Assembly (NCBI GenBank): GCA_019058315.1
Contig: JAHPZH010000001.1
Coordinates: forward strand, 1,009,432-1,073,431
DNA: 64,000 nucleotides
Direction of reading: 5' to 3'
From: Candidatus Helarchaeota archaeon
GTDB taxonomy: Archaea; Asgardarchaeota; Lokiarchaeia; Helarchaeales; RDOG01
The translations under genes and the position numbers were made by a program. Shown here piece after piece: positions 1 through 50,265 of the stretch. The stretch's first letter is position 1, and each line of letters starts with the position of its first letter. A model generated the notes under the pieces. The model was not told the origin of the DNA. It saw only the letters and a program-made list of their open reading frames with translations, and ran no database searches.

Positions 1-3000
1 TGTATATAGAACGTTAATTATGTCTCCATCGAGTGCTTGAATTGTATATCCGTCTAGACTAGATGTTTGGCTAAAGTTAAATGTTCCAATAAAGGTAGCA
101 GTATTGATTCCAGTTTCAATTAATGTGACATTTATCCCAATTTGATTTGTAGAACTATTTACTGTCACATTAACAGTATCAAAATCACCAGGATTTATAT
201 TTAAATCCTCATCTGTTACAGTAATATTTGCTATAGCTCCAGAACCATAATATGTGAGTGAATCTATTTGTAATGTTCCTGTATCAGTAATATGCCAGAT
301 TGAGCTATTCTTTCGTGTCATTGCTGTTCCTGATATGTTTCTAGCATCTTGATATATACAATTAACAGAATCTAAGTCAGAAACTCTAAGCAATCTTAAG
401 GCAGAACTACTTGTAGTTAATGAAAAGGTGAAGTTTCCTTTGAATTCATTAGAATCTACTCCAGTCTCAGTAAGAGTTAGTGTAATTCCCGTAGGGTTGG
501 TTGTACTGTTTACATTAATAATTTTAGATTCTATTATAGTTGAATTTTGATTCAAATCATCGTCAATTAAAGTAACAATTGCAGTTGTAAGTCCGTAATA
601 ATCGGTACTATCAAATGTTATATTACCAGTATGGGTCTCAATCCAAGTAAATGTATAATTGCTCCATTCATATATATCACTTATATTAAGATCCCAATAC
701 CAAATCCATACAGAGTCACTACCTTGGACATATATACGATCTAATACATTGTCGCTAGGAGCAGTTGTTTTAAAGGTAAAGCTGCCAGTAAATATTCCCG
801 TGTTGATATCGGTTTCCGTTAGATCGACATTAATCGTACCCGGATCGGAATCACTACTCACATTAACTTCTATTAAATCAATTGCATATGCATCAATGTC
901 TTCATCTCTGTCTATAAGAGTGATATCTACAAATGCAGCTGTTCCATAGTAAGTATCTGTTACAAATGAATACTCAGTAGTCACATGTTCAGTCCATAAT
1001 GCTGTATCAATAGATTGTGCAGGATTACCTCCAGCATCATTTTCATCATCATAAGTTACAGTAATTATACTGCCATTATCCACTTGAATTTGGTCTAATG
1101 CATCGTTACTCACCGTCATATTATAACCAAGACTACCAACGAATATACCAGTACTATTACCTGTTTCAGTTAAGGTTACGAGAATTCCTGTTGCATCAAC
1201 ACTGCTTGTAACTTTTATATCGAAAGTATCAATTGCACCTACATCCCTATTCTCATCTTCGTCTGTTAATGTTATGGTTGCATAGTGATTAATTGTTTGA
1301 TACCATGTGTCATCAAATACTGCAACTCCAGTTACGTATTCATTCCATGTTACAGTATCTGTGACGTTTTTAGGCTTTCCTGTAATATCCCATCTATCTA
1401 AGTAGCGAGAAGATACAAATGTATTGTCTTGAACGTGAATGGTATTATTTGATTCCCAACTGCCTAATTTACTGAAATTAAGTTGGGTTGTAAATATGCC
1501 TGAACTTATAGCCGTTTCAGTTAGAGTTATATTAATTCCTGTAGAATCGAGAGTGCTAGTTACGATTACCCAAACTTGATCATAACCGATTTTATTTTCA
1601 TTTGCATCAGAATCAGTTATAGTTATTATTGCGGATTCACCAGTACCATATCCTTCACTATCAAATCCAATCGTTCCGGTTACGGTAACAGTCATATTAG
1701 CATAAGCATAAACATCTGCAGGTGCTCCACTATTTGTATGAACATCATAATAATAAGCAGTAATTATATCACCGTCAGACACGTGAAGTGTGCGGGGAGT
1801 CGTTGCATTCGAACTTGATGCACTCGTGGGCTTAAATACACCAACAAAGATGCCGGTATTAACCCCTGTTTCAGTACATGGAACAATAATCCCTCCGGGA
1901 CTATCACTAGTGGATGTTACGAAAATATTGACAACTTGTATAGTTCCAGAACCTGTATTTAAATCATTATCTGTTACAGTAATTTCTGCAATCTGACCTG
2001 TTCTATATGAAGATGAATTTAATCCAATTGATCCTGTAATTGTTGCAATCCAATAAGCAAAATCTTTTACTCTTGCAGATGCACCAGTTATAGTATATGT
2101 GTCATTATAGATTGCTCTTACTATATCATCATCTTGAGCCCAAATTAAATCTAAAACATCATTACTGCTAGTTGTATTAAATTTGAATGTTCCTTGAAAT
2201 ATACTCGAGTCAGGGAGAGTTTCGGCTAATTGTACCGTTATACCAGTAGGATCACTGGAACTATTAACATTTACAGTAACATAATTTATTGCAGAAGGAT
2301 TCGTGTTTAAATCAATATCTATGACCTCTATTGTAGCCTCGGCATCGGTACCATAGTAATTTAATTCATCTAATGTTATAGTACCAGTATGAGTTTCTCT
2401 CCAATAAGCAGTATCGAGAGAAGTTCCTGGGTTTCCTGTAATTGTATGCGTATCATTATAACGAACTGTAATTAAATCATCATCAAGGGCCAAAATGATA
2501 TCCGCAGGATCATTGCTAGCTGCTGTGGAGAATTCAAAATCACCTTGGAAATTATTGCTATTGATCCCAGTTTCAGTTAATAAAACATTAATTCCTATCA
2601 GATCACTTGCACTCCACACATCAATAGAAACTGTCTGAGGAGTTAATGGATTCGTATTTAAATCAGAATCAGTTACAATTACTGTTGCTATTGCTGCAGT
2701 TCCGTAATAATTCTCAGCATTTAATGCAATACTTCCAGTTTCTGTTTCAATCCATAAAGCAGATTTCTTTGGTCTCGCTGAAGCTCCAGTAACTGTATGA
2801 GTATCATTATAAATTGCCCTTACAGTATCTCCATCTAGAGCCCAAATTAAATCACTTGGATCATCACTTCCCGAGATACTAAACTTGAATGTCCCGGTAA
2901 ATATACCAGTGTTGATATTTGTTTCTGTTAGTTGTACGTTTATTCCAGAATTATCACTGGTACTATTAACATTCACAGTAACATAATTTATTGCTGAAGG

Positions 3001-6000
3001 ATTTGTGTTTAAATCAGCATCATTTACTATAACTTGTGCAACTGCAGCGGTTCCATAATAAGTTGTAGAATTTAGATTAATACTTCCTGTAGTAGTTTGC
3101 TCCCAAATCGCACTATCAGATGGTATTGCAGAAGCACCAGTAACAGTATGTGTATCATAATAAATTGATTTAACAGTATTTCCATCAAGTGCCTGAATCT
3201 TATCGTTAATATCATCACTTGGACCTGTAGTAAATTGGAAAGTACCTCTAAATATTGAAGAATTTTGAGGAATAGCTCCTGTTTCAGTTAATATAACATT
3301 TATTCCTATGGAATCAGATGTGCTATTTACTTTTACATTTACTGTTTCGGTTATGGTTGGGTTAGTGTTCAAATCGGCATCAGTAACAGTAATAGTAGCT
3401 ATGGCTGCTGTTCCATAATAGGTTGTCTTATCTAATGTTATATCACCAGTACTTGTTTTTATCCATATAGCAGTATCCGTCTTGTTAGAGGCTGGTCCAC
3501 TTGCGGTATGTGCGTCAAGGTATCTTGCTGTAATTGTATCACCATCAGAAACCCAAATTTCATCATCAATATCACTACTAGAGGAAGTGTCAACATAGAA
3601 ATATCCTTGAAATATACTTGTATTTACGCCAGTCTCATATAATCGGACAGTAATTCCTGGAGAAGGATCCGATGTACTAGTGACTTTAATATCAACTGTT
3701 TGATTTGTTGCTGGATTTGTATTCAAATCAATATCTGTAACAATTATTAGTCCAGTAGCACCTGTTCCATAATAAGTTGTTTGTTCAATATTTATAGTGC
3801 CACTATAAGTCTTTTCCCAAACTGCACTGTCACTTGGTCTTGCAGAGGTTCCAGTAATTGTATATGTGTCGTTATATATTACCATTATATTATGTCCATC
3901 AAGAACTTTAATTATATCATTGATATCATCACTTGCACCAGTAGTAAATGTGAAGGAACCTGTGAAAATACTGGTATCAGGACCAGTCTCCTCCAAATTA
4001 ACAGTGATGCCAATAGGATCATCCGTACTATTCAGATTCACGTCAACGTCATTTATTACTAGTGGATTAGTATTTAAATCTTCATCTTCTACCGTTATTA
4101 GCGCACTTGCGGCAGTCCCGTAATAGGTTGCTTTATCCAAGGTAATAGTTCCTGTGTCGGTTTCTATCCAAATAGCAGTATCCGACTTGTTTGTGGTTAT
4201 ACCAATTGCGGTATGGGCATCTAGATATATTGCTTTCATAGTATTTCCATCAGCAACTTGAATTTTATCATTAATATCACTGCTAACTATCGTATCAACA
4301 TAAAAATATCCAGTAAATGTGCTTGCATTTAAACTCGTCTCATATAATCGAACAGTTATGCCAGCATTATCACTAGTACTATTAACCTTAATATCTACAT
4401 AATTCGTACTGTAAGGATCTGTATTCAAATCAGCATCTGTAACCGTTACTAGTGCTGAAACACCAGTTCCATAATAAATAGATTCTTGAATATTTATTGT
4501 TCCACTGAATGTTTCATCCCAAGTTGCATCAGTAGTCTGTACAACAGATACTCCCGTTACATCATGTGCATCTGCATATCTAGCAGTAATAATGCTACCA
4601 TCCAATGCATATATAATATCATTGAAATCATCACTTGCGGATTGACTAAATTCTAAAGTACCGATAAATTGACTTGTATTTACATCTGTTTCAACTAATT
4701 GAACCGAAATACCACCAGGAGGCCATGGATCATCAGTGCTCCAAACTCTTACATTAACTGTATCATTATCATACTGATCAATGTTTAAATCAGAATCTAC
4801 TACTGTAATAACCGCGACGGCTGCAGTGCCGAAATAAGTTGAGGCATCGAAATTAATTGATCCTGTAGCTGTTTGGTCCCATATTATATTTTTTACTATT
4901 GTTGCATTTTCTCCAGTGCTGGTATGGATGTCTTCATATATTAAAGTGACATTATCTAAATCAGCAACCTTAATTTTTCTATTAGCAGAATCACTAGCTC
5001 CAGTTGTGAATGTAAAACTTCTTCTAAATTTTTGACTATTATTTGATAGTTCTATTAATTCAATTTGAAAACCTATAGGATCTGAATCACTTGATATATT
5101 TATCCAATAAGATTCTATTAATGAGGGATTTGTGTTTAGATCTGCATCTGTTAATGTAATCCATGCCACAGCTAAACCACCATAGTACATAATTTCATCT
5201 TCTTCATTAGTTTCATGATCATCAATAACCATAGTAGCAGTATAAGTCTTTATCCATTCACCGAGAGCAGTTCTTGTTTGAGGAAGCCCATTAATATCAT
5301 ATTGTTCAGTATATATTGCTGAGATTACATCTCCACCAGTAACTTTAATTAAGTCCAAAGGATCATTACTTGTTCCAGTTGTAAAGTTAAATATTCCTTC
5401 AAATGCTGATGAATTTGTTCCAGTCTCTGTCAAAACAACTTGTATACCGACAGGATCTGCCGTACTTGTGACATTTATAGTCACTGTTTCAGTTACGCTT
5501 GGGTTAGTGTTCAAATCAGGATCGGTAACACGGACTTGAGCATATGAATCAGTTCCATAAAATTCGTCTGGACCAATATAAGTTATAGTCCCAGTCCAAG
5601 TTTTTACCCAACTTGAAGAATTTGATACATAATCAGAAAGTCCAGTTACACTCATTTCATCATTATAATAAACATAAACATTATTTCCATCTTCAATATG
5701 AATTCTTACTGTGACATTACTACTTGCAGTTGATATAAAAGTAAAAGTACCTTGAAATATACCTGAACTACTAGTAGTTTCAGTTAAATTAACATTTATG
5801 AAATCTCCAGAAGAGGTACTATTTACTGTAACCATAAACCACTGTACAGTTGCATCATCTGTATTAACATCTGAATCATAAACAGTAATAGTTGCAGTTG
5901 AATGTCCAAAGTATTCATCAGCATCTAAAATGACTATTCCTGTGACTGTTGCATTCCAAGTAGCTGTATCTGTGTCCGAATCTGGAAAACCAGTTTCATT

Positions 6001-9000
6001 CAACGCATCAGTATATGTTGCATAAATCATATCTCCATCTTGAGCCCAAATTATATCATTATCATCGTCACTAGAAGTTAAATTAAATGTGAAGGTACCA
6101 TTAAATATTCCTGTATTGGGACCTGTCTCAGTTAATTGAACTGTAATACTCGAAGGATCTGAATCACTACTTACAATTACATTTACTGTTTGAGATGTTC
6201 CAGGATTTGTATTTAAATCATTATCATTTACTGTGATTACAGCCTCTGCAAGAGTGCCATTATATTGATCATAATCTAAATCAATAGTTCCCGTAATAGT
6301 AGCAATCCATGTTGCCGTATCATTCGGATTATTTGGTACACCATTGGCATTAAATGCGTCAGCATATATTGCTGTAACAACTTCTTGAGGTGCAGCTATT
6401 CCGATTAAATCTGAGCTATCATTACTGAAACCTAGGTTAAATCCAAAAGATCCTGTAAATATTGAAGAGCTTATACTATTTTCAGTAATAATAACTGAGA
6501 TTGGAGTGCCAGTGGAACTTTGAACAGTTATTGAGGACTGTTCAATCGTAGTATTATCTGTATTTAAATCAGCATCTGTAACTGTAACTGTAGCAATATC
6601 TCCAGTTCCAAAATATTGAATTTCATCTAAAGTAATAGTTCCTGTATAATATTTCGTCCAAGTTGCATTTTTAAATGGATGTTTATTAGCTCCAGTTGCA
6701 TCAAGAGTATCGTTATATTCAACTATAACCCATTGAGGTGAGGCATCATCAGTCATACCAATTTGTCTAGATGCATTATTACTACTAGTACCGAATACGA
6801 ACCATCCAGTAAATATACCAGTATCAACTCCTGTTTCGGTTACGGTTAAATTGACCCAGCCTGGTGCATCTTTACTTGTGATGTTTACCCAAGCTATATC
6901 TATAGATACATCAAATAGATTTAAATCGCTGTCCGTAACTGTAACATACACAGTATATACATATCCCGTATAACTTGTTTTATCTATTTGAATTATTCCA
7001 GTAGTAGATTTACGCCATATAGCTGTATCAATTGGATTTGCTGGATTTCCATCATCGGCATGCTCATCATTATATTGAACTGTAATAGTTCCTTCATCAA
7101 CAACACGAATAATATCAAGAGTGTCATTACTTGTGCCAACATCAGTAAATGTAAAAGTACCTCTAAATTCTCCTGGAGTAGCAACTTCTTCAGTACATTC
7201 TACGGTAATACCAGTAGGATCTGTAGTACTTACTACCGAAATATTAACAGCATCTTGTCCTGGAGTAACATCTAAATCCGAATCAATTACTGTAATTATT
7301 GCAGTCTCACCAGTTCCATAACGATCTTTATTCAGAACTATAGTTCCAGTATAAGTGGCATACCAAATAGCCGTATCAGTTGTACTAACTTGAGCTCCTG
7401 TAATGTCGTGGATATCAATATAAGTAACCGTTACATTATCCCCATCGGAAACATAAATCTCATCAGCAGTATCATTACTTTGAATCTTGCTAAAACTGAA
7501 ATATCCCTGGAAGAGTCCACTATTAAATGCAGTTTCAGTAAGAGTCACCGAAATACCAGTGGCATCACTATCGCTTGTAACATAAATCACTACTGTTTCT
7601 TTCACGCTTGGATTTTGATTCAAATCAGCATCATTAACAGTTACTATAGGACTTTCACCAGTAATATAAGAAACTGCATCAAGATAAATAGATCCAGTAA
7701 CTGTTTCAATCCAAGTTGCGGTATCTGTAGGACTGGCAGAAGCTCCAGAAACATCATGAGCGTCATAATATGTAACTGTTACAATATCATCATCAGTAAC
7801 ATGAATCCAATCATCTATATCACTACTACTCGATGTATTAAAAGTAAAAGTACCTGTGAATATACCAGTTTTAACACCAGTCTCACTAAGTGTGACATTA
7901 ATACCCGTTCCATCAGTATCACTTGTTATAGTTACATTAACAGTATCAATAACAGTGGAATTTTCATTCAAATCTGAATCTGTAACTGTTATTGAAGCAG
8001 CCCCAGTTCCATAGTAAGTGATTTTATCCAATAATACAGAACCGGTAACTGTAGCTATAAAGATTGCAGAATCCGTTACCGTTGCTGGAGAACCAGTTGC
8101 TGTATAAGCATCATTATAGCTTACGGTAACTATTGAACCGTTTACGACTTTAATTTTATGTGCAGCTTGACTACTAGATCCGAATGTAAAGCCGAAGAAA
8201 CCTGTAAAATTACCAGTAGTGGCTCCAGTCTCTGTTAATTCCACGGTTATAGATCCAGCGGCAGGAGCTGTGCTTGATACGGTAATAATAACGGTATCTG
8301 GAGAACCGGATGTATCTAAATCTTCATCAATAACAAATACATTTGGGGATTCTCCCGTAATATATTCCGTTGCATCAAGTTCAATAGTACCTGTATGAGT
8401 CTCAATCCAAGTTGCAGTATCTGTAGGACTGGCAGCAGCACCAGTTACAGTATATTGATCATCATATCTTGCATAAATAGTATCTCCATCAAGAGCCAAT
8501 ATTATGTCCGATCCATCATTGCTAGCAGTCATATTAAATGTGAAGTTACCAGTAAAGATACCAGTATTTACCCCTGTTTCTTGACAGGTTACGTTAATAC
8601 CTCCAGTATCACTGTCACTGGTAACATTGATATTTACAAATTCAATAGCACTAGGGTTAGTGTTCAAGTCTGAATCAGTTACCGTGATTATTGACATGGC
8701 TCCTGTTCCGTAATAAACAGTATCATCTAAAATTATTGTACCTGTCACAGTAGCAGTCCAAATTGCTGTATCGGTTCTATATGATGAAGCTCCTGAAGCT
8801 ATATGAACATCAAAATATCTTATAGTAACTGTATTACCATCTTGAGCCCAGATTTTATCATTTGTATCATCGCTTGGAGATGTGGTCTTGAAACCAAAAG
8901 TTCCAATGAAAATACCTGTCTGTCCTCCTGTTTCATCTAATGTTACATTAATTCCTGAAGAATCACTTGTACTTATTACATTGACATCTATATGATCTAT

Positions 9001-18000: not shown

Positions 18001-21000
18001 TCCTGCAGGATCGCTTGTGCTCCAGACTTCTATAGAAACAGTTTGTGAAGTGGCATTATTAGTATTTAAATCATGATCTGTTACCGTAACAAAAGCCCTT
18101 GCGGCTGTTCCATAATATATACTAGCATCTAAATTAATAGTACCACTCCAAGTTTTAGTCCAATTAGCTGAAGCCGTTGGGCTTGCAGAGGCTCCTGTTA
18201 TAGTATGTTCATCATTATATTTAACAGTAAAATCTCCACCATTTATTACATAAATATCATCTGTTGCATCATTACTTGCAGTATTATTGAAATATACCAC
18301 CCCAGTAAATATTCCAGAAGATACTGAAGTCTCTGTACATAAAACTTGAATTCCAGTCGGATCTATACTGGAATTGACATAAATTATAACACTCTGTGTG
18401 GAGCCAGAATCTGTATTTAAATCAGAATCTGTAACAGTAATAGTTGCAGAACTTAAACCAAAATAATCATCATCATCTAATTCTACTGTTCCTGTAACAG
18501 TGGCAGTCCATGTTGCAGTATCGGTGGGATTACCTGGTGCACCGGTTGCAGTCCTTGCATCAGTATATCTTGCGGTAATAGTGTCACCATCAACAGCCTT
18601 TATTATATCAAGGGGATCATTGCTGGTTGTGCCGAAAGTAAAATTATCGGTAAATACACTCGTATTTACACCAGTTTCGGTCAATTCAACTTTAATTCCG
18701 GTAGGATCACTTGTACTCCAAACACTAACATTTACTTTTTCAACAACACCTGCTTTTTTATTTAAATCTTGATCAGTAACAGTTATTATTGCCACTGCAC
18801 CTGTACCAAAGTATTCATCCGCATCAAGGATAATTGTTCCTGTATAGGTTTTAATCCACATACCATAATCATTTCTACTTACACTATCACCGTTAATATC
18901 TTTAGACTCGTCATAAAGAGCCCATACTTCACTTGCATTTGCAACTTTAATAATATCATTTGCATCGTTACTAGCTGCAGTGCTAAAATATAATGTTCCA
19001 GTAAATACCCCTGTATCAAGTCCTGTTTCATTACATTCGACTCCAATACCAATTAAATCCACAGAACTATTTACGTCTATATTTATTGTATCATATTGAT
19101 CATCATGTTGATTCTCATCAAAATCTTCAACCGTAATTGTGGCAATAGCTGATGTGCCATAATAATAAAAAGCATTTAAAAGAATTGAGCCACTTACATA
19201 AGTATACCAAATAGCGGTGTCATTTACATAAGCTGGTAAACCAGTAGCATTATTTGCATCAAAATAACGGGCTATTATGGAACTTCCATTCGTAGCTTCA
19301 ATAATATCGGAATCATCATTACTGCTGGAACCAAAAGTAAACGTTCCTTGGAAGATCCCAGTATTTGGTCCAGTTTCTGTACAAGTTACATTAATACCAC
19401 TTGGATCATCCGTACTCGTAACATTAACTTTAACACTTTCCGCAGCTCCTGGTAATTGATTTAAATCTGGATCAGTTACTGTAAGGTGTGCAGTTCTCCC
19501 ACTGCTATATGTTGCATCGTCTAATACACAAGTTCCGCTTGCAGTTTGAGTCCAAGATGCGGAATCGTTATGGACATCTGCAAGACCAGTATAATTATGA
19601 GCTTCAAAATACCATGCAAAAACAGTATCTCCTAATGAATTGACCCAAATTAAATCATTAGTATCATCACTTGCTGTGATACTAAACGAGAATGTACCAG
19701 TAAATACTCCCGTATTTACACCAGTTTCTGTACAAGTAACATTAATTCCCGTGGAATCTTGAGTGCTATTTACAGTAGCATTAACAGATTGTTTCGAAGT
19801 GGCTGCTGTATTCAAATCAGCGTCCGTAATAGTAATGGTTGCAGTTTCATAGGTTCCGTAAGATGATTGATCCAAATCGAGAGAACCAGTTTCTGTTGCA
19901 TCAAATGTAGCCGTATCAATTGGATTAGCAGAAGTGCCCGTAACTGTATATTCATCATGATAAGTTACAGTTACAGCATCTCCATCTTGAACATAAATAC
20001 GATCTAAAACATCATCACTTGGAGAAGTTAGTTTAAAGGTGAAATTTCCTGTAAATACTCCAGTTGATGCTCCGGTTTCAGTTAGTGTGACATTAATACC
20101 TATTGCATCAGAATCGCTAGTAATTGTAACATTAACTTGATCAGGTGAACCAGAAATATCTAGATCCGAATCTGTAACATTAATAAATGCGGTTTCACCA
20201 GTAATATAATCTTCTTTATCCAGACTAACAGAACCTGTAATAGTCGCATTCCATGTGGCTGTATCTGTGGGAGCATTTGGATAGCCATTATAATCATATT
20301 CATCATCATAGCGGGAAGTAATTATATCACCATCTACCGCTTGAATTGAAGTCCCTGGAACGCTTGCTCCAGAGGTAAATCCAAATATTCCAGTAAATAT
20401 ATGAGTTGTTGCTCCAGTTTCAGTTAGTAATATAAAAATTCCATAACCATCACTTGTACTCGTAACATTAACCGAGACTGTATCTGGACTAGCAGTTGTA
20501 TCTAAATCAAGATCATCCACAGTAATTCTAGCCTTAGCAGCAGTACCAAAATATTCAGTTGCATTTAATTGAATTGTACCAGTATGAGTCTGTTCCCATG
20601 TTGCTGTATCTGTATCATAAATATCTGCACCAGATTCATCATGTTCATCATAATATTGAACTGTAACAGTATCACCATCTGACACTTCTATTATGTCTAA
20701 ATTGTCATTACTAGTAGTTTTACTAAAATTAAGTAACCCTTGAAATATACCAGTGGTTGCCCCAGTTTCAGTTAGCGTAACATTAATACCCGTTGTATCA
20801 GAATCACTAGTAACTGTAACATTAATTTGATCAACACTACTTGAAATATCTAAATCGGTATCATTCAATGTAATAACAGCTGTCTGGTTTGGATAATATA
20901 CATTGTTATCAAAATAAACATCTCCTGTCATTGTCTCAATCCAAATAGCTTGTTTGTATGGATTTGCGCTTTCACCTGTTTCATCATGTACATCTGTATA

Positions 21001-24000
21001 ATATGCTCTTATATTTGATCCATTTAGTGCATAAATTAAATCATTCGTATCGTCACTTGGTGAAGTTATTTTAAATCCAAAAGTGCCATTAAATATACCT
21101 GTATTTACTCCTGTCTCAGTAAGGGTTACATTAATCCCCGTACTGTCTTGAGAACTAGTAACTTTTATAATAATATTATCAATACCTGAAGGATTTTCAT
21201 TCTCATCAAAATCATTAACTGTAAAAAGTGCAATAGCAGCAGAACCATAATAAATCGTGTTATTTAATGATAGAACTCCAGTAATTGTTTCAATCCAAGT
21301 CGCAGAATCAGAAGTACTTCCTGGAGGACCAGTTATTGTATGTGCATCATCATATCTGGCAGTAATACTATCATCATCAACTACTTGGATCATATCTGCT
21401 GTATCATTAGAAGTTACATTCACATAAAATGTCCCTGAGAAGATACCAGTGGTAGGTCCAGTTTCGGTTAATTGAACTTGTATACCAGCTCCATCACTGG
21501 AACTTGTGACATTTATAGTAGTTGTATCCGTACCAGAGGTGGTATCTAGATCTGAATCAGTTACTGTTGCAGTAATTTCAGCATCAGTACCAAAGTATTC
21601 TGTTTGATCTAATGCTATTGTTCCAGTAACTGTTTCAACCCATGTAGCAGTATCAGTTGGAGATGCTGAAGCTCCTGTTAAAGTATGTTCATCATCATAA
21701 CGGACTGTGATAGTATCCCCATCTAATGCTTTAATGATATTTGCTGGGTCATTACTACTACCTTTAGTAAAAATAAATGATCCATTAAATATACCTGTGT
21801 TGTCTCCAGTTTCAGTTAATGGAACACTTATTCCAATAGAATCACTATCACTTGTAACATTTACTTCTACAGTATCAGGACTGCCAGTTACATTAAGATC
21901 TGCATCGACAACAGTAATATAAGCAGTAGCTCCTGTTCCATAATAATAATCCGCGTCTAATTCAATCGTACCAGTAACTGTTGCTATCCATGTAGCTGTA
22001 TCAGTATGATTTGCAGAAGCACCACTTAAAGTATGTTCATCCTCATAACGAACAGTAATGATGTCTTCGTCAGCAACTAATATTTTATCATCAGGATCAC
22101 TGCTTGCAATTGTACTAACAATAAAAGTTCCATTAAATATGCCAGTAGTGGCTCCCGTCTCAGTTAATTGGACGCTAATACCGGTTGAGTCACTTGTACT
22201 AGTAACATAAACGTCCACTGTATCTGCACTACCAGTTGTATCCAAATCTGAATCTGTTACTGTGATAATAGGAATCGCTCCAGTTCCATAGTATGTATCT
22301 ACATCTAAAATTATTGTTCCGGTTACAGTAGCTATCCAAGTAGCACTATCTTTTGGGTTAGCTGAGGAACCCGTAACAGTATATGTATCGTTATATATCA
22401 CCATAACAGTATCGTCATCAGTAACCCAGATTTTATCTAATGCATCATCACTGGGTGCAGTAGTTTTAAATTCAAAATGACCAGTAAATATTCCAGTAGA
22501 CCCACCTGTTTCTGTTAATTGTACTTCTATACTATTTGGATCTGATGTGCTGTTTACTTTAACGTCAACCGTATCAGAACCTCCAGTAGTGTCTAAATCT
22601 TCATCTTCAACAGTGATATAAGCTGTAGCTCCAGATCCATAATAAGTTAATTTATCTAAATCTACCGTACCTGTGTAAGTTTTTATCCAAGTAGCAGTAT
22701 CTTTTGGTTTTGCAGGAGTTCCTTCTGCGGTTCGTGAATCATTATAAATTACCATAGTAGTATTGCCATCTTGAGCCCAAATTTTATCAGCAGGGTCATT
22801 GCTAGGTCCACTTTCTGTAAAAGTAAACTTTCCGGTAAATGTGTTTGTATTTACATCTGTTTCGGTTAATCGAACAATAATACCAGGTTGAGGATCTTTT
22901 GAACTATTTACATTTACATCAATAGTCTCAGCTACACTAGGATTGATATTCAAATCTGCATCAATAACAGTAATTGTTGCTTCTGCAGCGGTTCCATAAT
23001 AAGATGTTGCATCCAATTCAATAGTACCAGTATGAGTCTCGATCCAAGTTGCAGATTTCTTTGGTCTTGCTGAAGCTCCGGTTACGGTATAAGTATCATT
23101 ATATATGGTCCTAACAGTATCATCATCTTGAGCCCAAATAATATCACTAGGATCATTACTACTGCTTGTACTGAAGTAAAAATTCCCTTTAAATATCCCA
23201 GTATTAGAACCAGTTTCAGTTAAACGAACAATAATCCCCTCATTATCGCTTGTACTATTAACATTTACATCAACATAATCAGCTGATCCTGAGGTGTCTA
23301 AATCAGAATCTTCTACTGTAATTTCAGCAACTACATCAGTTCCGTAATAAGTCGTAGCATTTAAATTTATAGTCCCTGTCACCGTAGCTTCCCAAGTAGC
23401 TGAATCTTTAGGTCGTGCTGATGCGCCAGAAGCAGATCGGGTATCATTATAAATAACCATAGTTGTATTTCCATCCTGTGCCCAGATTTCATCACTAGGA
23501 TCATTGCTTCCAGAGGTACTGAACGTAAATGTCCCAGTGAAGGTACTCTGATTTACCCCAGTTTCAGTCAATTCAACAATAATTCCCGAAGCATCTAACG
23601 AGCTATTCACATTTACATCAACAGTTTCTATTACACCTGGATTTGTATTTAAATCAGCATCTGTTACTGTAATAGACGCCATCGCATCTGATCCATAATA
23701 TATACCAGCATCTAAAACAACCGTTCCAGAATAAGTTTTAATCCAAGTTGCAGTATCAGTCGGACTTGCAGAAGCCCCAGAGGCTGTATGTTCATCATCA
23801 TATCTTACAGTTATAGTATCGTCATCTTGAACATATATACGATCTAAAATATCATCACTTGGAGCAGTTAATTTAAAGGTGAAAGTACCCGTGAAGATTC
23901 CAGTTGAACCACCAGTTTCATCTAATTGAACACTAATTCCTGCTCCATCACTGGTGCTCGTAACGTTTACATTTACTGAATCTGTCCCTCCTGTTGTGTC

Positions 24001-27000
24001 TAAGTCAGAATCAATTACAGTTATTGTTGCTTCTGCACCAGACCCATAATAAATTGTTGCATCAAGATCAACAGATCCAGTAACAGTTGCTTCCCAAGTA
24101 GCAGTATCAGTGGTAGTAACAGGATTACCATACATATTTTTTGCATCACTATATCTTGCAGAAATAGTATCGCCATCGACAGCCTCTATTCTATCCAAAG
24201 GATCACTTGTTGTAGTGCCAAAAGAAAAATTCCCATAGAAAATCCCAGAATTTACAGTAGTCTCCCATAATAAAACATTAATTCCGCTAGGATAAGGATC
24301 ACTTGTACTCCAGACTTGTATAGAAACAGATTGTTTAGTAGCATCGTTAGTATTTAAATCAGGATCAGTAACATTGACATATGCTCTCGCAGCTGTTCCA
24401 TAATACGTAGCTGCATCCAATTCGATTGTCCCTGTATAAGTTTGAGTCCAATCAGCAGTATCAGAATGGTTTTGTGCTAAACCTGTTACATTATGTTCAT
24501 CATAATAACGTACAGTAACAATATCACCATCAGTTACATTAATTTCATCACCTGGATCATCACTTCCTAAAGTTGTAAAAGTAAATGTTCCAGTAAATAT
24601 TCCAGAATCCACTAAAGTTTCATCACATTGAACTTGAATTCCAGAAGTATCTGTAGTGGAAGTTACATAAATATAAACACTTTGTGTGGTTCCAGGGTCT
24701 GTATTTAAATCAGAATCTGTAACAGTCACAGTGGCAGTGCTCAATCCATAATATTCGAGTTCATCTAATTCGATTGAACCGGTAACAGTAGCTGTCCAGA
24801 TTGCAGTATCTGTAGGTTGAGCAGGTGTTCCTAAAGCAGTTCTTGCATCACTATATCTTGCGGTGATAGTATCATCAGGAGATACTTTAATAATATCATT
24901 ACTATCATCAGTAGTAGTTGTACTAACTGAGAATGTATTTCTAAACACACTGGTATTAACATTAGTTTCAGTTAATTCTACAGTAATTCCTGTAGGATCA
25001 CTATTACTCCATACACTAATATTAACTGTTTCATTGGCAAAAGCATCTCTATTTAAATCTTGATCCGTAACAGTAACTGTAGCCACTGCACCAGTACCAA
25101 AATATTCAGTTTCATCTAAATCAATTATGCCAGTATATGTTTTTATCCAAATACAATAAACATTTCTATCAACACCAATTCCATTAATATCTTTATCTTC
25201 CTCAAAAAGAACCCATACTTCACTTGCATTAGCAACTTTAATAATATCACTTGTATCACTACTTGCTGCTGTACTAAAATAAAATATTCCAGTAAATATC
25301 CCTGTATCAAGACCAGTTTCATTAACTGTTACTTGTATACCACTGAGATCTTCCGTACTATTTACTTTAACTTCAAATGTATTATAAGATGTGGGGTTTG
25401 TATTTTCATCGAAGTCATTAACAGTAACTGTAGCTGAAGCTGATGTTCCATAATAGTAGAAAGCATTTAATTCAATAGTTCCACTCACGTATTGATACCA
25501 TATTGCTGTATCAATTTTATCTTCAGGTAATCCGGTTGCATTTTTTGCATCATAATAACGAGCTGTTATCACACTACCATTAGTGGCTTCAATAATATCA
25601 GAATCATCATTACTACTGGTACCAAAAGTAAATGTTCCTTGGAAGATTCCAGTATTTGGTCCGGTTTCTGTACAAGTTACATTAATACCACTCGGATCAT
25701 CATCACTCGTAACATTAATTTTAACACTTTCTGAAGCTCCTGGTAACTGATTTAAATCTGGATCAGTTACTGTTATGTGTGCAGTTCTCCCGGTACTATA
25801 AGTTGCATCGTCTAATACACAAGTTCCGCTTGCAGTTTGAGTCCAAGATGCAGAATCGTTATGTACATCTGCAAGACCAGATGCATTATGAGCTTCAAAA
25901 TACCATGCAAAAATAGTATCTCCTGCTGAATTGACCCAAATTAAGTCATTAGGATCATCACTTGCAGTAATATTAAATGAGAATGTACCAGTAAATACTC
26001 CCGTATTTACACCAGTTTCTGTGCAAGTAACATTAATTCCCGTGGAATCTTGGGTGCTATTTACCGTAGCATTTACAGATTGCTTCGAAGTTACTGCAGT
26101 ATTTAAATCAGCGTCTGTAATAGTAATGGTTGCAGTTTCATAAGTTCCATAAGATGCTTGATCTAAATAAAGAGAACCCGTGACTGTTGCATCAAAAGTG
26201 GCTGTATCTATTGGATCTGCGGAATCTCCAGACTCAGTATATTCATCGTGGTAAGTTACAGTGACAGTATCTCCGTCTGATACTTTAATATATTCTAAGT
26301 CTTTACTATCGGTTAAATTGAATTGGAAAGTTCCGATAAATATGCCAGTATTTGCTCCAGTCTCAGTTAATGTTACATAAATACCAGAAGGATATGAAGT
26401 ACTAGTTACTGTAACATTAACTTGATCAAGGCCACCAGTAGTGTCTAAATCCGAATCGGTAACGTTAACAATTGCTGTCTCACCTGTAATATAATAATCT
26501 TTATCTAAGTCAACAGAACCTGTAATCGTTGCATTCCAAGTTGCAGTATCAATGGGAAATGCAGGATTACCATTTACATCATAAGAATCATTATATATTG
26601 CATAGATTATATCACCATCTGCAGCTTCGATTTTTCCTCCTCCAGAAGTTCCCGTTGTAAAGCCAAATGTATTAGTAAATATTCCAGTTGTCGGACCTGT
26701 TTCAGTAAGTATAACATATATTCCCGTACTATCGCTTGTGCTATTTATTTTCACTATTACTGTATCTGGAGTGCCTTTAACATCTAAATCCGAATCTGTT
26801 ACTGTAACAGATGCAATAACATCAGTCCCAAAATATTCAGTCGAATTTAGTTCGATATATCCTGAAACAGTTTGGTACCATGTTGCTGTATCATAATGAT
26901 TTGTAGGGTTTCCAGTAGCAGTATAAACGTCATAGTAATCAACAGTAACTGTATCACCATCCGAGACTAATATTTCATCTAATGGATCGCTGCTGGTTAC

Positions 27001-29650
27001 ATTATCGAATGTAAAGGTGCCTATAAATACACCAGTATTAGGACCAGTTTCTGTACATGTTACATTTATTCCAGTTAGATCCGAATCGCTTGTAACAATC
27101 ACATCAACTACATCATTTCCACTTGTGACATCTAAATCAGAATCCGTAACATTAATGGTTGCAGTTTCTCCAGTATAATATATTGTATCATCTAGCACTA
27201 CATCACCCGTAACAGTTGCATTCCAAGTCGCAGAGTCAGTAACATTTGCAAAGAATCCTTGTTGGTTGTGTTCATCGCTGTATGTGGCATTTATTAAATC
27301 ACCATCAGCAGCTTCAATTTTTCCACTGCCACTGGCTCCTGTTGTAAATCCAAAAGTTCCGATAAATATACCTGAATGAAAATCAGTTTCAGTACATTTT
27401 ACAGAGATACCCGAATTGTCGCTATCACTTATTACACTAATATAAACATCATCTGCAAGCCCTGAGGTGTCTAAGTCCATATCAGTAACATTTATTTGTG
27501 CAATAGCACCAGTTCCAAAGTATGCTGTAGCATTTAGAGTTATAGTACCCGTTACAGTTTCTATCCAAGTGGCAGATTTCTTAGGTCTTTTAGGATCTCC
27601 TGCAGAATCATAAGTATCATTGTAAATAGCTCGTACAATATCATTATCTGTTACTTGAATTGAGGTCCCTGGAACGCTTGCTCCAGTAGTAAATCCAAAA
27701 TATCCTTCAAATATACTAGAATTCGCATTCAATTCTGTTAAAGTTATAATAATACCACTATTATCAGATGTACTATTCACATTTACATTAATTGTTTCCT
27801 GAGTTCCCTCATCTTGATTTAAATCTCCATCAGTAACTGTAATTTTAGCACTTGTTCCAGTACCAAAATATTGAGTACTATTTAATGAAATAGACCCCGT
27901 AACGGTTTGGGTCCAATATGCAAAATCTAATACTAAAACTTCTGCACCAGTAACATCATACTGATCCATGTATCCAACCATGATCGTATCATTATCTGTA
28001 GCTTTTATATAATCGCTTGCATTATTACTAGAGGTGGTACTAAAGTAAAATGAACCTGTGAATATTCCAGATGTTCCCGTAGTTTCTGTCAAAGTTACCA
28101 ATATGAATCCAGCTCCGGGTGCGGTACTATTTACACCAATTTCGACATTTTCTTGACCAGAAGTTGTATTTAAGTCATAATCAATAACAGTGACATTTGC
28201 AATGGCATCTGTACCAAAATATTCTAGAGCATCAAGGTCAATTGTCCCACTCATCGTTTCAATCCAAGTTGCTGTGTCACTTGGAGTGTCGGGGTCACCC
28301 GTAGAAGTGTGATTATCATTATAAATCACTTGGACAGTATCATCATCAGACACACTAATTTGTGTTCCCGGAACACTTGGACCAGTTGTAAAACCGAACG
28401 TGCCAGTAAATACACCAGTATTAATGCCTGTTTCATTCAAAATAATAGTAATGGAACTAGGATCAGTTGTACTATTTACAGTAACATTAAATGTTTCTAC
28501 AGCAAGGGGATTTTGATTCTCATCGTCATCTATAACCGTTACAAGAGCAATTGCTCCCGTTCCATAATAATAAGTTGCATTTAAACCAACTGATCCTGTA
28601 GTAGTTTCCGTCCAAATTGCAGTGTCGGTCACAATAACAGGATTACCTATTTGATCGTGTGCATCATCATAAATGGCAGTTATGATATCTCCATCTGTAG
28701 CTTTAATAATATCGCTTGCATTATTACTGGACGAAGTACTAAACCAAAAGTTACCAACAAATATTCCAGTAGAAAGTCCTGTTTCGTCTAGTGTTACATA
28801 AATGAACCCAGCGCCAGGGGCAGTGCTATTAATTCGAATATCCACATCATCAGGATTGATGTCACTTATATTTAAATCTGTATCATTCACAGTCACTGTC
28901 GCTACAGCATCAGTTCCGAAATATTCTATTGCATCTAACTCAATCGTACCGTTAGTGGTTTTATACCACCAAGCACTGTCGGTAAATTGAGCATATTCAC
29001 CTGTACTTGTGTGAGAATCGTTATATCTGACTCCAAATAAATCGCGATGATCTACCCAAATTGTATTAGTGCCACTACCGGTGGTACTGAAATAAAGTAG
29101 CCCCGTAAAATTTGCTGTATTAGGACCAGTTTCTGTTAAATTCACGTATATACCAGTCATATCAAGCGGACTTATTACGTTTACTTGAACCCAATCTATA
29201 GTTGTCGCCGATATATTCAAATCCCGATCTATTACCGTAATAGTTGCGATAGCTCCAGTTCCATAATAGAAAGTTTCATCAAGCGAAACCGATCCAGTCC
29301 AGGTTTCATCCCAAGTTGCATTATCGATCCTGCTTGTAACATTTCCATTAAAATCTTTTTCATCTATATATATAACAGTAATTTCATCTAAATCTAATGC
29401 TTTAATAATATCGTCAGCATCACTGGATGAACCTTTTGTAAATGTGAAATTACCAATGAAGATGCTAGAATTAACTGAAATTTCTGTGCACCTAACTCCA
29501 ATTCCAGTCGAATCACTATCACTTATTACTTTTACGTCAACATATTCTCTAGATAATGGATCTTTATTCAAGTCAGCATCAGTAACGTTAATATAAGCTA
29601 CAGCCCCAGAACCATAATAGACATCTTCATCTAAATAAACACTTCCATTA
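1..29650 (-). repeat. ~85 tandem ~350-nt (~117-aa) Ig-like coding repeats
   Basis: Consensus G[TS]IxLDxxxY[YF]GTxAxAxITVTDxDLN…V…S..D..GIxVxLTETGxxTGIFxGxFxF…SxDxxDxIxxxDGDTxTxxYxD…G….DTAxW. About 85 YxG signatures were counted by eye from ~241 to ~29612, mean spacing ~350 nt. Confidence 0.93.
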
Positions 29651-33117: not shown

Positions 33118-33339
33118 AATCAATCCCTCTTGGAGGTAATATGAGTGAGCAGGTCATCTAGTTTAAAGTTAGAAAAATTCAGATTGTGGTCTTTTATTTC
33201 ATAAACCAACTTAACATATCCGGATATTGTTAAATAATTGATTAAATCTAGCTAAATTCTCATAATTTAAACTAAAATGCCTGTTCTATTTTTCAATTTC
33301 AATAAATTCACTAAAGAATTAAACTAAATAAATTATGAC

Positions 33340-36180: not shown

Positions 36181-37110
36181 TCAAGTTTTAATTTTCTTCT
36201 TTTTTTGTTCATCTAAAATTTTCTTTAATTCTTTCATTTGATCCTCAACACTACCTAACTTTTTAATTTCTTCTTCTATTGCCATATCATCAGTGCTTAC
36301 ACTACTTTTTGAAGTGGATAAAGGACTTGGTGTAAGTGGTTTAGGTGAACTCTTAACCGGAATAGAATATGGTTTTGATGGCTCTTTAACAGGAGATACA
36401 AAAGGTTTAATTGGCTGAGGAACACCTTTAGGTAAGGAAGCAAGCTTGTCAGAGGGAATAGATCCCTTAGATGGAAGAGTCGGGGCCTTCACTGGAGGAC
36501 CTTTAGTAGGTGCCTTCATTGGAGGACCTTTAGTTGGTAACCTCGTTGGAGGACCTTTAGTAGGTGCCTTCATTGGAGGACCTTTAGTTGGTGCCTTCAT
36601 TGGAGGACCTTTAGTTGGTAACCTCGTTGGAGGACCTTTAGTTGGAGGAACCGCAGGAGTAGGTGCTTTAGTTGGAGGAGGTGGGCCTTTAACTGGGAGT
36701 GAAATAGGTTTAGCAGGTGTAAATGGCTGTTTAGGAACAGGTACTGTTGTGTCACCCGTAGCTGGAACTGCTTGAGCAACCTCAATAGGTTGGCTAAATT
36801 CTCTTAAAATAAGTTGAGGAGCCAATAATAAGTCGCTTATAAACTCCTGAATTTGTTCAGGATTCGCCACAACTCCCGTAGTAGTGCTTGTTTGAGTGAT
36901 CCTAGCTTTTAAGAATTCAAGCTTCTCTGTAAATTCTGTTTTTATACTCTCATCATCGATTTTATCTGAAATTTCTATTATTTCTTTAAAATGTTGCATA
37001 AGAAGGAGATAATCTTCATTTTTTAAGGCGGTTTCGGATTCTTTCATAAGATCCATACGTCTTTTCTTTAAGACCTTTAATTCCTTTGGACTTATATATT
37101 TAAACGACAA
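36181..37110 (-). CDS. Proline-rich repeat protein with helical (MIT-like) N-terminus and coiled-coil C-terminus
   Basis: 309 aa, TTG start after GGGAG. Helical N-terminus, PTKGPP repeats and a charged C-terminal helix. Confidence 0.85.
   Translation of the reverse strand: MSFKYISPKELKVLKKRRMDLMKESETALKNEDYLLLMQHFKEIIEISDKIDDESIKTEFTEKLEFLKARITQTSTTTGVVANPEQIQEFISDLLLAPQLILREFSQPIEVAQAVPATGDTTVPVPKQPFTPAKPISLPVKGPPPPTKAPTPAVPPTKGPPTRLPTKGPPMKAPTKGPPMKAPTKGPPTRLPTKGPPMKAPTKGPPVKAPTLPSKGSIPSDKLASLPKGVPQPIKPFVSPVKEPSKPYSIPVKSSPKPLTPSPLSTSKSSVSTDDMAIEEEIKKLGSVEDQMKELKKILDEQKKKKIKT
36485..36647 (-). repeat. 27-bp coding tandem repeat x6 (PTKGPP[MKA/TRL/VKA])
   Basis: ggaggacctttagt recurs at 36494, 36521, 36548, 36575, 36602 and 36629. 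Confidence 0.95.
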
Positions 37111-41938: not shown

Positions 41939-41988
41939 GAGAAATTAATATAAATTCAAAGTTTAAGGATTTTTGAAGGTTATCATCT

Positions 41989-49917: not shown

Positions 49918-50265
49918 TATGATTAAACTCTCAATAATTTTTCAAATAGAAGATTTGAATTATAGATAGTATTAATTTTATATTAAATTACCTATATTTC
50001 CAAATTCTAATTTTAATGAAATAAAAGTCGAAATCATGGTCACAAATGGTGTTAATAATTTACCAACTGGTCTAATAACTTTTGGAAGATCAGATGATTA
50101 AGTTCAATATAATCTCTATATTTTTTTTATAACAAATTTCTAATTTGGAATAATCGGACAGTATAAGCTGGGAATTATTGGACTATATTATTTTTTATAA
50201 CATTAAAAAGTTCTATATCATTTAAAGTATTATTGCATCGATTTCGAATTTCAAAGGTGAATTTT

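What the first reader, a model, noticed from the sequence alone, without database searches (positions are those of the whole stretch)
1000..27500. Titin-like 18-domain super-repeat (~6.3 kb / ~2,090 aa) in the giant protein
Seen: rare repeat variants recur every 18 units. G[LH][ST][ST]A is at units 17/35/53/71 (~5908, 12146, 18458, 24746). YITGE is at units 22/40/58/76 (~7660, 13892, 20198, 26483). xYGTxE is at 21/39/57/75. Short-loop Y.[TP][GN][EQ] is at 6/24/42/60/78. KVANASEVW is at ~18930 and ~25220. About 4.7 super-repeats lie in the window. Known: ordered super-repeats are a hallmark of titin and nebulin, where they act as molecular rulers. Inference: preserved position-specific identities suggest a ~70-80 nm structural periodicity (helical register, partner-binding sites or hinges). 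Simple block duplication is the alternative.
Basis: partly seen in the sequence, partly recalled or inferred. Interest (0 to 1): 0.9.

Follow-up and report, generated by a model that had tools for sequence, protein, structure and literature searches.

The report
Old 18-domain super-repeat, archaeal giant protein
A 13,736-residue cell-surface protein of an archaeon (Asgard, according to earlier notes of this scan) is built largely from 93 similar Ig-like domains, and an ordered block of 18 of them is repeated four times exactly and a fifth time in shortened form; this is a real record of ancient block duplications, but nothing found here shows that it works as a titin-style ruler.

Summary
The minus-strand ORF (window 1-33123, continuing 8 kb beyond the window) encodes 13,736 aa with 93 tandem units of about 116 aa.

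- **Lag 18:** mean identity peaks at lag 18 (z 7.5-8.8 against other lags). A 5.8-kb self-match at 70% nt identity lies at a lag of 6,282 nt.
- **Loop pattern:** one loop shows the class pattern ccccccTcTGSccLcccc in four successive 18-domain copies. A fifth copy is three units shorter. Permutation p <= 5e-6.
- **History:** copies 1/2 and 3/4 are old pairs (dS about 1, dN/dS 0.1-0.5). Between the two pairs only the loop classes survive; the rest of each domain is at family background.
- **Domain family:** the unit has no Pfam model. It matches the Ig-like domains of the Nitrosopumilus S-layer protein (E 1e-22, TM 0.83).
- **Relatives:** no orthologue was found, so period conservation could not be tested. 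Other members of the family show periods of 2, 3, 5 and 6.

Best reading: in-register block duplication (a coding higher-order repeat) in a rod-like surface extender. The ruler idea is unsupported. This scan has already reported similar super-repeats in other Asgard giant proteins on other DNA.

The parts
1..33123 (-). Window part of the giant ORF. The whole gene is G000:C3:1001344-1042554 and encodes 13,736 aa. It has an N-terminal signal-like segment, a head of about 1,190 aa, 93 tandem units, four mixed Ig/FN3-like modules, a transmembrane helix and a short tail.
1..29556 (-). Tandem array of units of about 116 aa, related to S-layer Ig-like domains. Units 1-84 lie in the window; the array runs on to residue about 12,041 outside it.
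23065..29331 (-). Super-repeat copy 1 (domains D1-D18, residues 1265-3353).
16780..23064 (-). Super-repeat copy 2 (D19-D36). It pairs with copy 1: 5.8 kb at 70% nt identity, at a lag of 6,282 nt.
10480..16779 (-). Super-repeat copy 3 (D37-D54).
4189..10479 (-). Super-repeat copy 4 (D55-D72). It pairs with copy 3 mainly over D43-46/D61-64. Its second half is strongly diverged.
1..4188 (-). Copy 5 (from D73), shortened. Its loop classes read T G S c L at D79-D83, that is three units fewer than in copies 1-4. It continues outside the window.
24469..27243 (-). Variant-loop cassette of copy 1 (D7-D14; classes T c T G S c c L).
18181..20961 (-). Variant-loop cassette of copy 2 (D25-D32).
11869..14661 (-). 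Variant-loop cassette of copy 3 (D43-D50).
5629..8427 (-). Variant-loop cassette of copy 4 (D61-D68).
25519..26214 (-). D10-D11, the younger tract shared with D28-D29 (window 19228-19923): 90-91% aa, 89% nt, dS 0.37. It is a likely gene-conversion patch and holds the longest exact DNA repeats (44 and 50 nt).

Best explanation
The array is the extender of a giant type-I membrane-anchored surface protein. The extender is built from Ig-like domains of the archaeal S-layer kind.

It grew by repeated in-register duplication of an 18-domain block, in the way higher-order repeats grow in satellite DNA and in titin's middle-Ig region. An ancestral block had itself been assembled partly by two-domain duplications. 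It already carried five domains with a variant A'-B loop, at positions 7, 9, 10, 11 and 14.

The block was first copied into at least two or three lineages. Later each of two lineages was copied again, giving the order 1-2 and 3-4. After the first duplication, the best homology for unequal crossing-over or gene conversion lies exactly 18 units away. Later events therefore keep the period without any selection on length.

All copies stay under purifying selection for a foldable domain. The loop variants persist because they sit at otherwise highly conserved positions and include a one-residue indel, so they change slowly. Block-wise growth also keeps neighbouring domains dissimilar.

Shown here: the pattern, the colinear DNA, the ages, the purifying selection and the fold. 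Inferred: the recombination mechanism, the rod shape and the extender role.
For: **Pattern and history**
- 93 tandem units.
- Lag-18 peak at z 7.5-8.8.
- 5.8 kb at 70% nt identity at a lag of 6,282 nt, and 2.2 kb at 67.6% at a lag of 6,231 nt.
- Identical loop-class string in four copies, p <= 5e-6.
- The tree pairs D8-15 with D26-33 and D43-46 with D61-64, with support 87-100.
- Synonymous sites are near saturation: background pS is 0.64, against 0.41-0.61 in copy 1-2 pairs. dS is about 0.6-1.3 and dN/dS 0.10-0.48. A younger tract at D10-11/D28-29 has dS 0.37.
- Nearly all exact DNA repeats of 26 nt or more in the array lie at lag 18.
- Lag-2 sister pairs D2/4, D3/5, D72/74 and D73/75 show small duplications as well.
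- No adjacent pair reaches 70% aa identity (maximum 0.66), while lag-18 pairs reach 0.91.
- Other long members of the domain family have their strongest internal lags (robust z 3.4-5.4) at 2, 3, 5 and 6, and none at 18.

**Domain and architecture**
- Single domain: pLDDT 95.4, best PDB match 8C8K at TM 0.83 and rmsd 1.5 A. Profile E = 1e-22 against the same protein.
- Tandem model: pLDDT 96.6, pTM 0.84.
- The N-terminal hydrophobic segment and the C-terminal transmembrane helix with tail are read directly from the sequence.
Against: - The T-class loop sits at D7/25/43/61/79, exactly 18 apart five times. That holds over a time long enough to saturate synonymous sites and to erase all other same-position similarity between the two lineages. 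Selection on spacing or on the cassette would also produce this.
- No orthologue was available, so neutral drift of copy number could not be shown.
- The recombination mechanism is inferred, not observed.
Confidence: 0.8

Rival explanations
1. Functional periodicity. The cassette of variant loops (positions 7, 9, 10, 11 and 14 of each block) changes the domain-domain junctions. It thereby forms a hinge, kink or docking zone about every 75-90 nm along the rod. Selection keeps both the cassette and the 18-domain spacing, as in titin's A-band.
For: - The loop classes are conserved in four or five copies while the rest of the domains diverged to background.
- The T loop is spaced exactly 18 apart five times.
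- In a related strain, YITGE of D63 carries three synonymous changes and no amino-acid change.
- From the strand order of the models, the loop should lie at the end of the domain that faces the next domain. This is inferred; no coordinates were available.
Against: - Outside the loop, same-position domains of the two old lineages are no more alike than other pairs, even at the variant positions.
- Charge, sequons, length, Cys and Trp show no periodicity beyond lag 18.
- Copy 5 has lost three units inside the cassette.
- No periodic partner is known.
- The domain subtypes also occur in short paralogues with 7-9 domains.
- Other family members show different periods.
Confidence: 0.12
2. The 1-2 and 3-4 pairing does not record the order of duplications. 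It reflects later in-register gene conversion between neighbouring copies of a block that was already amplified four or five times.
For: - Divergence along the copy 1-2 pair is patchy: dS is 0.37 at D10-11 against about 1 around it.
- Copy 3-4 similarity is largely confined to D43-46/D61-64, while D47-54/D65-72 lie below background.
- The longest exact matches cluster in these patches.
Against: Copy 1-2 similarity runs colinearly over about 16.5 units with fairly even dS of 0.8-1.3 outside the young patch. That fits one duplication followed by one small conversion better than many conversions.
Confidence: 0.25
3. Artefact or chance: the periodicity comes from misassembly of a repetitive gene or from chance recurrence of short motifs.
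For: None found. The genome is a metagenome-assembled one (94% complete, 6.6% contamination).
Against: - Units differ by at least 11% in DNA.
- A separate contig set of the probable source run covers window 7500-19540 in one piece with no difference.
- Three runs from two other studies tile the gene at 90-97% identity.
- Permutation p <= 5e-6.
Confidence: 0.01

Closest known systems
Titin (connectin) middle-Ig 6-Ig and 10-Ig super-repeats (PMC12241362)
   Same: An array of a single Ig-like domain kind in which a multi-domain block was copied in tandem several times. Copy number differs between lineages. The cited paper raises avoidance of near-identical neighbouring domains as a possible reason for block-wise growth. 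No ruler role is claimed.
   Different: This one is archaeal and extracellular, with no exons. The block is larger (18 domains, about 2,090 aa). The domain family is unrelated. The oldest copies have diverged until only one loop marks the register.
Titin A-band D-zone (7 domains x 6) and C-zone (11 domains x 11) super-repeats (PMC10665226)
   Same: An ordered pattern repeated in tandem. Domains at equivalent positions keep specific features. It is thought to have arisen by serial duplication of super-repeats.
   Different: Titin's pattern is made of two domain kinds (Ig and FnIII). Its length of about 43 nm matches the myosin helix and the MyBP-C stripes, and it is conserved across vertebrates. 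Here all domains are of one kind, no partner or matching period is known, and no orthologue could be compared.
Extender region RII of the Marinomonas primoryensis ice-binding adhesin MpIBP (PMC5550230)
   Same: A surface-anchored protein in which about 100 tandem Ig-like beta-sandwich domains of about 104-116 aa make up most of the chain and carry a distal head. By that scale (0.6 um for about 120 domains), 93 domains give about 0.45 um.
   Different: MpIBP repeats are identical in sequence, are rigidified by Ca2+ as shown by experiment, and are exported by type I secretion. Here the domains are about 45% identical and are organised in a higher-order block. Anchoring is by a C-terminal transmembrane helix. 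Ca2+ binding is only suggested by the conserved D-x-D-x-N and other acidic motifs.
Nitrosopumilus maritimus S-layer protein NmSLP, Nmar_1547 (PDB 8C8K; PMC11153153)
   Same: The repeat unit is homologous to its Ig-like domains, best to the ninth (residues 1501-1594): profile E 1e-22, TM 0.83, rmsd 1.5 A, 28% identity. It shares the motifs around D-x-D-L-N and E-T-G-x-N-T-G-x-F. Both are acidic. Sequons are frequent here, and NmSLP carries 17 mapped glycans per monomer.
   Different: NmSLP has ten domains and forms a hexagonal lattice. This protein has 93 such domains in a row plus a membrane anchor, which does not look like a lattice subunit.
Earlier reports of this scan on other Asgard giant proteins (e1-5455127, e1-2677147, e1-5454426)
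   Same: Multi-domain blocks of Ig/FN3-like domains duplicated inside giant archaeal surface proteins. Those agents judged them to be old block duplications rather than rulers.
   Different: Those cases had 17 domains x about 2.4, 8 domains x 2 and 3 domains x n. This case has the largest block (18 domains), in four exact copies plus a shortened fifth, and a different domain family. I did not re-test those reports.

Membership tests
Titin A-band-type functional super-repeat (molecular ruler) | An ordered pattern of distinguishable domains repeated in tandem several times | tested here: met
   Loop-class string ccccccTcTGSccLcccc in four copies and a shortened fifth.
Titin A-band-type functional super-repeat (molecular ruler) | Domains at equivalent positions are more alike across all copies than domains at other positions | tested here: not met
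   True only within the pairs 1-2 and 3-4. Between the pairs, the register peak is broad (-2 to +2). With loop columns removed, same-position pairs equal background.
Titin A-band-type functional super-repeat (molecular ruler) | The period matches a periodic partner structure | not testable with these tools
   No partner is known and no imaging is available.
Titin A-band-type functional super-repeat (molecular ruler) | The period is conserved among orthologues | tested here: inconclusive
   No orthologue was found in 40 relatives, 300 genomes of the phylum, metagenome contigs or genome contigs. Distant family members show periods of 2, 3, 5 and 6.
Block-duplication higher-order repeat (titin middle-Ig type) | Colinear multi-domain DNA similarity at one fixed lag | tested here: met
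   5.8 kb at 70% identity at a lag of 6,282 nt, and 2.2 kb at 67.6% at a lag of 6,231 nt. Exact repeats are concentrated at lag 18.
Block-duplication higher-order repeat (titin middle-Ig type) | Copies of different age, all under purifying selection | tested here: met
   dS is 0.37, about 1, or saturated, and dN/dS is 0.10-0.48 in the related pairs.
NmSLP-type archaeal S-layer Ig-like domain | Sequence homology to the NmSLP domains | tested here: met
   Profile of 83 domains against PDB sequences: 8C8K chain, E 1.1e-22, best stretch at residues 1501-1594.
NmSLP-type archaeal S-layer Ig-like domain | Same fold | tested here: met
   AF2 model with pLDDT 95.4. Foldseek against 8C8K: TM 0.83, rmsd 1.5 A, 112 columns.
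NmSLP-type archaeal S-layer Ig-like domain | The protein forms a two-dimensional lattice | not testable with these tools
   The architecture (93 tandem domains plus a transmembrane anchor) differs from the ten-domain NmSLP (PMC11153153).
RTX-type fibrillar adhesin (MpIBP, SiiE) | A long tandem Ig-like extender between an anchor and a distal head | tested here: met
   Head of about 1,190 aa, 93 domains, C-terminal transmembrane helix.
RTX-type fibrillar adhesin (MpIBP, SiiE) | RTX repeats and a C-terminal type I secretion signal | tested here: not met
   The Pfam scans of four segments (residues 1-3000, 5542-7041 and 12042-13736) gave no RTX family; residues 3001-5541 and 7042-12041, both inside the domain array, were not scanned. 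The C-terminus is a transmembrane helix with a short tail. The organism is an archaeon.
RTX-type fibrillar adhesin (MpIBP, SiiE) | Ca2+ bound at the inter-domain linkers makes the array rigid | not testable with these tools
   D35 and D37 are invariant and other acidic motifs are conserved. The tandem model has pTM 0.84. This is suggestive only.

The most novel reading that the evidence does not exclude
The five variant-loop domains form a conserved cassette that alters consecutive domain junctions. The rod of about 0.45 um would then carry a hinge or docking zone every 18 domains (about 75-90 nm). The cassette and its spacing would be kept by selection since before the copies diverged to saturation. 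That would make this a prokaryotic protein with a titin-like, functionally periodic design.
Probability: 0.1. Interest if true: 0.7.

Novelty: new member of a known kind. Interest (0 to 1): 0.3.

Why it matters
- **A clear prokaryotic example.** It is an unusually clear case of a coding higher-order repeat in a prokaryote: an 18-domain, 6.3-kb block kept in exact register four times inside one of the largest archaeal proteins seen. It shows how such giants grow. They grow block by block, which also keeps neighbouring domains dissimilar.
- **A marker for old homology.** It shows that a slowly changing loop can mark register long after overall similarity has gone.
- **An uncatalogued domain family.** It flags a large domain family without a Pfam model (about 5,300 clusters at 50% identity) that is related to the thaumarchaeal S-layer protein.
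- **If the periodic-hinge reading were true.** It would be a rare case of titin-like design outside eukaryotes. The present evidence does not favour that reading.

Tried and rejected
- **Pfam.** Scans of the array and of both ends gave no family for the unit. Only a sub-threshold DUF4785 hit, fn3 in the head and Big_7 near the anchor appeared.
- **Tandem Repeats Finder.** It reports nothing in the array, because the units are too diverged and its maximum period is 500.
- **Orthologue searches.** The domain profile matched nothing in 40 relatives and only 2 of 300 other genomes of the phylum, each with a single domain hit. Close-relative scans of metagenome contigs (D7-D15) and genome contigs (N-terminal head) found nothing. 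A word-based search for proteins of similar size gave four giants at 23-26% identity, which are not orthologues. The top representative hit, P0005, is a GC-rich protein with 20 domains at about 36% identity.
- **Bulk features by position.** Length, net charge, sequons, Cys, K+R and Trp show no periodicity beyond lag 18.
- **Whole-domain tree.** It does not recover same-position clades across the two old lineages, apart from D22/D58.
- **Sequencing runs.** No RNA holder is listed. The 'joints' in the contig table come from secondary alignments of repeats and were not used.
- **Structure tools.** No coordinates are returned by the structure tool, so junction geometry and rise per domain could not be measured.
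- **Taxonomy.** I checked only that the genome's SSU rRNA is archaeal. 'Asgard' rests on earlier notes of this scan.
Full report
**What is there**

The window holds one huge open frame on the minus strand, at 1-33123, open at the window's left edge. In the whole genome it runs from C3:1042554 down to 1001344 and encodes 13,736 aa.

The protein starts with a hydrophobic signal-like segment. It ends with a transmembrane helix and a short tail. It is therefore a type-I membrane protein with its N-terminus outside the cell.

The genome's SSU rRNA is archaeal. Earlier notes of this scan call the organism an Asgard archaeon. I did not test that further.

**Units**

A profile built from the protein's own repeats finds 93 contiguous full units of 107-124 aa (about 116 on average), from residue about 1190 to 12041. 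After these come partial copies interleaved with other Ig/FN3-like modules.

I re-framed the units to the likely structural domain, which starts at the conserved D-T-A-T-W. This gives 92 domains, D1-D92, of which 83 lie in the window.

Pfam has no model for the unit. An AlphaFold2 model of one domain is confident (pLDDT 95.4). Its best match among solved structures is a domain of the Nitrosopumilus maritimus S-layer protein, 8C8K: TM 0.83, rmsd 1.5 A, 28% identity. The domain profile also matches that protein by sequence (E 1.1e-22). The best match is at residues 1501-1594, the ninth Ig-like domain, and the same motifs recur in other domains (PMC11153153).

A profile search of 1.84 billion representative proteins finds 5,310 proteins at E <= 0.001. 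The family is thus large but uncatalogued. A two-domain model is also confident (pLDDT 96.6, pTM 0.84). That fits a fixed junction and a rod-like array, but no coordinates were available to measure it.

**Check of the observation**

In my numbering they fall as follows:
- G[LH][ST][ST]A: D14/32/50/68.
- YITGE: D9/27/45/63, and also D43/61.
- xYGTxE: D10/28/46/64.
- The short Y-x-T-G-E-like loop: D7/25/43/61/79.
- KVANASEVW: the units straddling D12/D13 and D30/D31.

All these motifs except the last are variants of one loop, between strands A' and B. In most domains that loop reads Y-[YF]-G-T.

Classing that loop as canonical (c) or as one of four variants gives this picture:

| Copy | Loop classes | Note |
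|---|---|---|
| 1 | ccccccTcTGSccLcccc | D9 (YYITGE) counted as a T variant by eye; the script scored it c |
| 2 | ccccccTcTGSccLcccc | |
| 3 | ccccccTcTGSccLcccc | |
| 4 | ccccccTcTGSccLcccc | |
| 5 | ccccccTGScLccccccc | same order, three units fewer |

All 19 variant loops that the script scored in D1-D72, and D9 as well, fall at these five positions. The permutation test used the script's scoring: placing the same number of variants at random in each copy reaches the observed four fully shared positions with p <= 5e-6. If copies 1-2 and 3-4 are counted as only two independent lineages, the chance of the same five positions is 1/8568.

Whole-domain identity gives the same period, but only for one step:
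- Mean identity is 0.503 at lag 18, against 0.44-0.47 nearby.
- After double-centring, z is 7.5 by identity and 8.8 with rare residues up-weighted.
- Lag 36 reaches about 2 and lag 54 about 0.5.

At the DNA level, the best self-match is 5.8 kb at 70% identity at a lag of 6,282 nt. The next in the array is 2.2 kb at 67.6% at a lag of 6,231 nt. No separate diagonal appears at two or three periods. The four copies are 2,089-2,100 aa long.

The pattern is not an assembly artefact:
- No two units exceed 89% nt identity.
- A separately built contig set of the probable source run covers window 7500-19540 in one piece with no difference.
- Short contigs from three runs of two other studies tile the gene at 90-97% identity.

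**History**

Copies 1 and 2 are related over about 16.5 units. D8-D15 pair with D26-D33 in the tree, with support 87-100. Copies 3 and 4 are related mainly at D43-46/D61-64.

Synonymous sites are close to saturation. Random pairs have pS 0.64. Copy 1-2 pairs have pS 0.41-0.61 (dS about 0.6-1.3) and dN about 0.2-0.3, with dN/dS 0.10-0.48 in the related pairs. Both copies have therefore been under purifying selection for a long time.

D10-11/D28-29 stand out, with 90-91% aa identity and dS 0.37. This is most simply a later gene-conversion tract. It holds the longest exact DNA repeats in the array, 44 and 50 nt.

Between the two pairs of copies, domain similarity is at family background:
- The register profile has only a broad hump from -2 to +2.
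- With the loop columns removed, same-position pairs are no more alike than other pairs, even at the variant positions.

There is also a broad 18-unit modulation. Runs of mutually similar 'canonical' domains (D16-23, D34-41, D52-60, D73-78) alternate with diverged runs.

Lag-2 sister pairs (D2/4, D3/5, D72/74, D73/75) and the T-c-T motif show that two-domain duplications also took place.

**How it most likely arose and works**

Nearly all exact DNA matches of 26 nt or more in the array lie at lag 18. This is what a higher-order repeat looks like. After a first block duplication, the best substrate for unequal crossing-over or conversion lies one block away. Further events then keep the period without selection on length.

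Two further points fit this reading:
- Growth in blocks places similar domains far apart. No neighbouring pair reaches 70% identity (maximum 0.66), while pairs 18 apart reach 0.91. The titin literature discusses avoidance of near-identical neighbours for the same reason (PMC12241362).
- Other long members of this domain family show internal periods of 2, 3, 5 and 6, and none of 18. Block growth is therefore common in the family, and 18 is not a family constant.

The loop variants sit at positions that are otherwise among the most conserved of the domain (Y22 is kept in at least 90% of domains). They also include a one-residue indel. They should therefore change slowly and outlast other similarity.

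**The ruler idea**

For it:
- The cassette survives in four or five copies.
- The T loop is spaced exactly 18 apart five times.
- A related strain keeps YITGE of D63 through three synonymous changes. In that contig, 8 of 10 differences are synonymous.
- From the strand order, the loop should face the next domain, so it could change the junction. This is inference only.

Against it:
- There is no same-position conservation outside the loop.
- Charge, sequons, length, Cys and Trp show no deep periodicity.
- Three units are lost inside the cassette of copy 5.
- The same domain subtypes occur in short paralogues. parB carries S-type domains colinear with D11-D12. parC carries a T-type domain nearest D63/D45.
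- No partner is known.

The domain was not found in 40 relatives. It was found as single hits in only 2 of 300 other genomes of the phylum. No close relative of the head or of D7-D15 turned up in the contig collections. Giant repetitive genes are often missing from fragmented assemblies, so this is 'not found', not 'absent'.

**Size**

By the scale of the Marinomonas adhesin (about 120 domains of 104 aa spanning 0.6 um; PMC5550230), 93 domains would span about 0.45 um and one block about 90 nm. At 4 nm per domain, a block would span about 72 nm. These are estimates by analogy.

**Comparison and verdict**

The nearest known parallel is titin's middle-Ig region. There, 6-Ig and 10-Ig blocks were copied in tandem and vary in number between lineages (PMC12241362). 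The A-band ruler pattern is a more distant parallel: it combines two domain kinds and matches a 43-nm partner lattice (PMC10665226).

This scan has already reported block duplications in other Asgard giant proteins on other DNA. The present case has the largest block of these, 18 domains, in four exact copies plus a shortened fifth.

I rate it a new member of a known kind.

Noticed in passing
window 1-29556 (-) and the whole domain family: The unit of about 116 aa has no Pfam model. Its profile nonetheless finds 5,310 representative proteins at E <= 0.001 (423 at E <= 1e-30) in bacteria and archaea. It is homologous to the Ig-like domains of the Nitrosopumilus S-layer protein. This is a candidate for a new domain family entry.
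   Followed up: partly
G000:C3:120985-124476 (-), C3:794176-798342 (-), C9:91083-96932 (+): Three shorter paralogues (1,164, 1,389 and 1,950 aa) carry 7-9 domains of the same family plus a transmembrane helix. The first two share a nearly identical cytoplasmic tail ending around L-K-E-L-A-S-L-S-P-K-E-R-E-E-F-L, which the giant protein lacks.
   Followed up: partly
L001 (G000:C3:999000-1009431), residues about 12,100-13,600 of the giant protein: A second higher-order repeat lies next to the membrane. Modules of about 415 aa (lags of 1,236-1,257 nt; 3.3 kb at 68% identity) hold a partial copy of the unit plus Ig/FN3-like domains (Big_7 hit).
   Followed up: partly
window 316-29331 (-): Every domain is strongly acidic (net charge -5 to -21). 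Each carries about three N-x-S/T sequons on average. The array would thus be a long, glycosylated polyanion.
   Followed up: partly
window 7500-27400: Short contigs from three sediment or other metagenome runs of two other studies (2025) match the gene at 90-97% identity along most of its length. A close relative that carries the individual copies therefore exists elsewhere.
   Followed up: partly
window 31620-32115 (-): Other first-stage notes propose a caspase/CHAT-like His-Cys domain in the N-terminal head. Pfam gave only an fn3 hit for residues 1-1189. I did not test the protease idea.
   Followed up: no
window 36181-37110 (-) and 50233-54516 (+): Neighbouring ORFs carry their own repeats. 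One is a 27-nt (9-aa) tandem repeat in a 309-aa ORF with no Pfam hit. The others are 168-nt and 327-nt repeats in a 1,427-aa protein with Big_13/Big_3_2 hits.
   Followed up: no
window 38805-43746 (+): A MoxR-like AAA ATPase gene (AAA_3, AAA_lid_2) is followed by two co-oriented ORFs of 511 and 585 aa with no Pfam hit. A small LRR protein lies at 44360-44908.
   Followed up: no
G000:C12:1-900 (L002): The only SSU rRNA match in the assembly is a partial archaeal 16S (model positions 1-877) at the end of a 31-kb contig.
   Followed up: no
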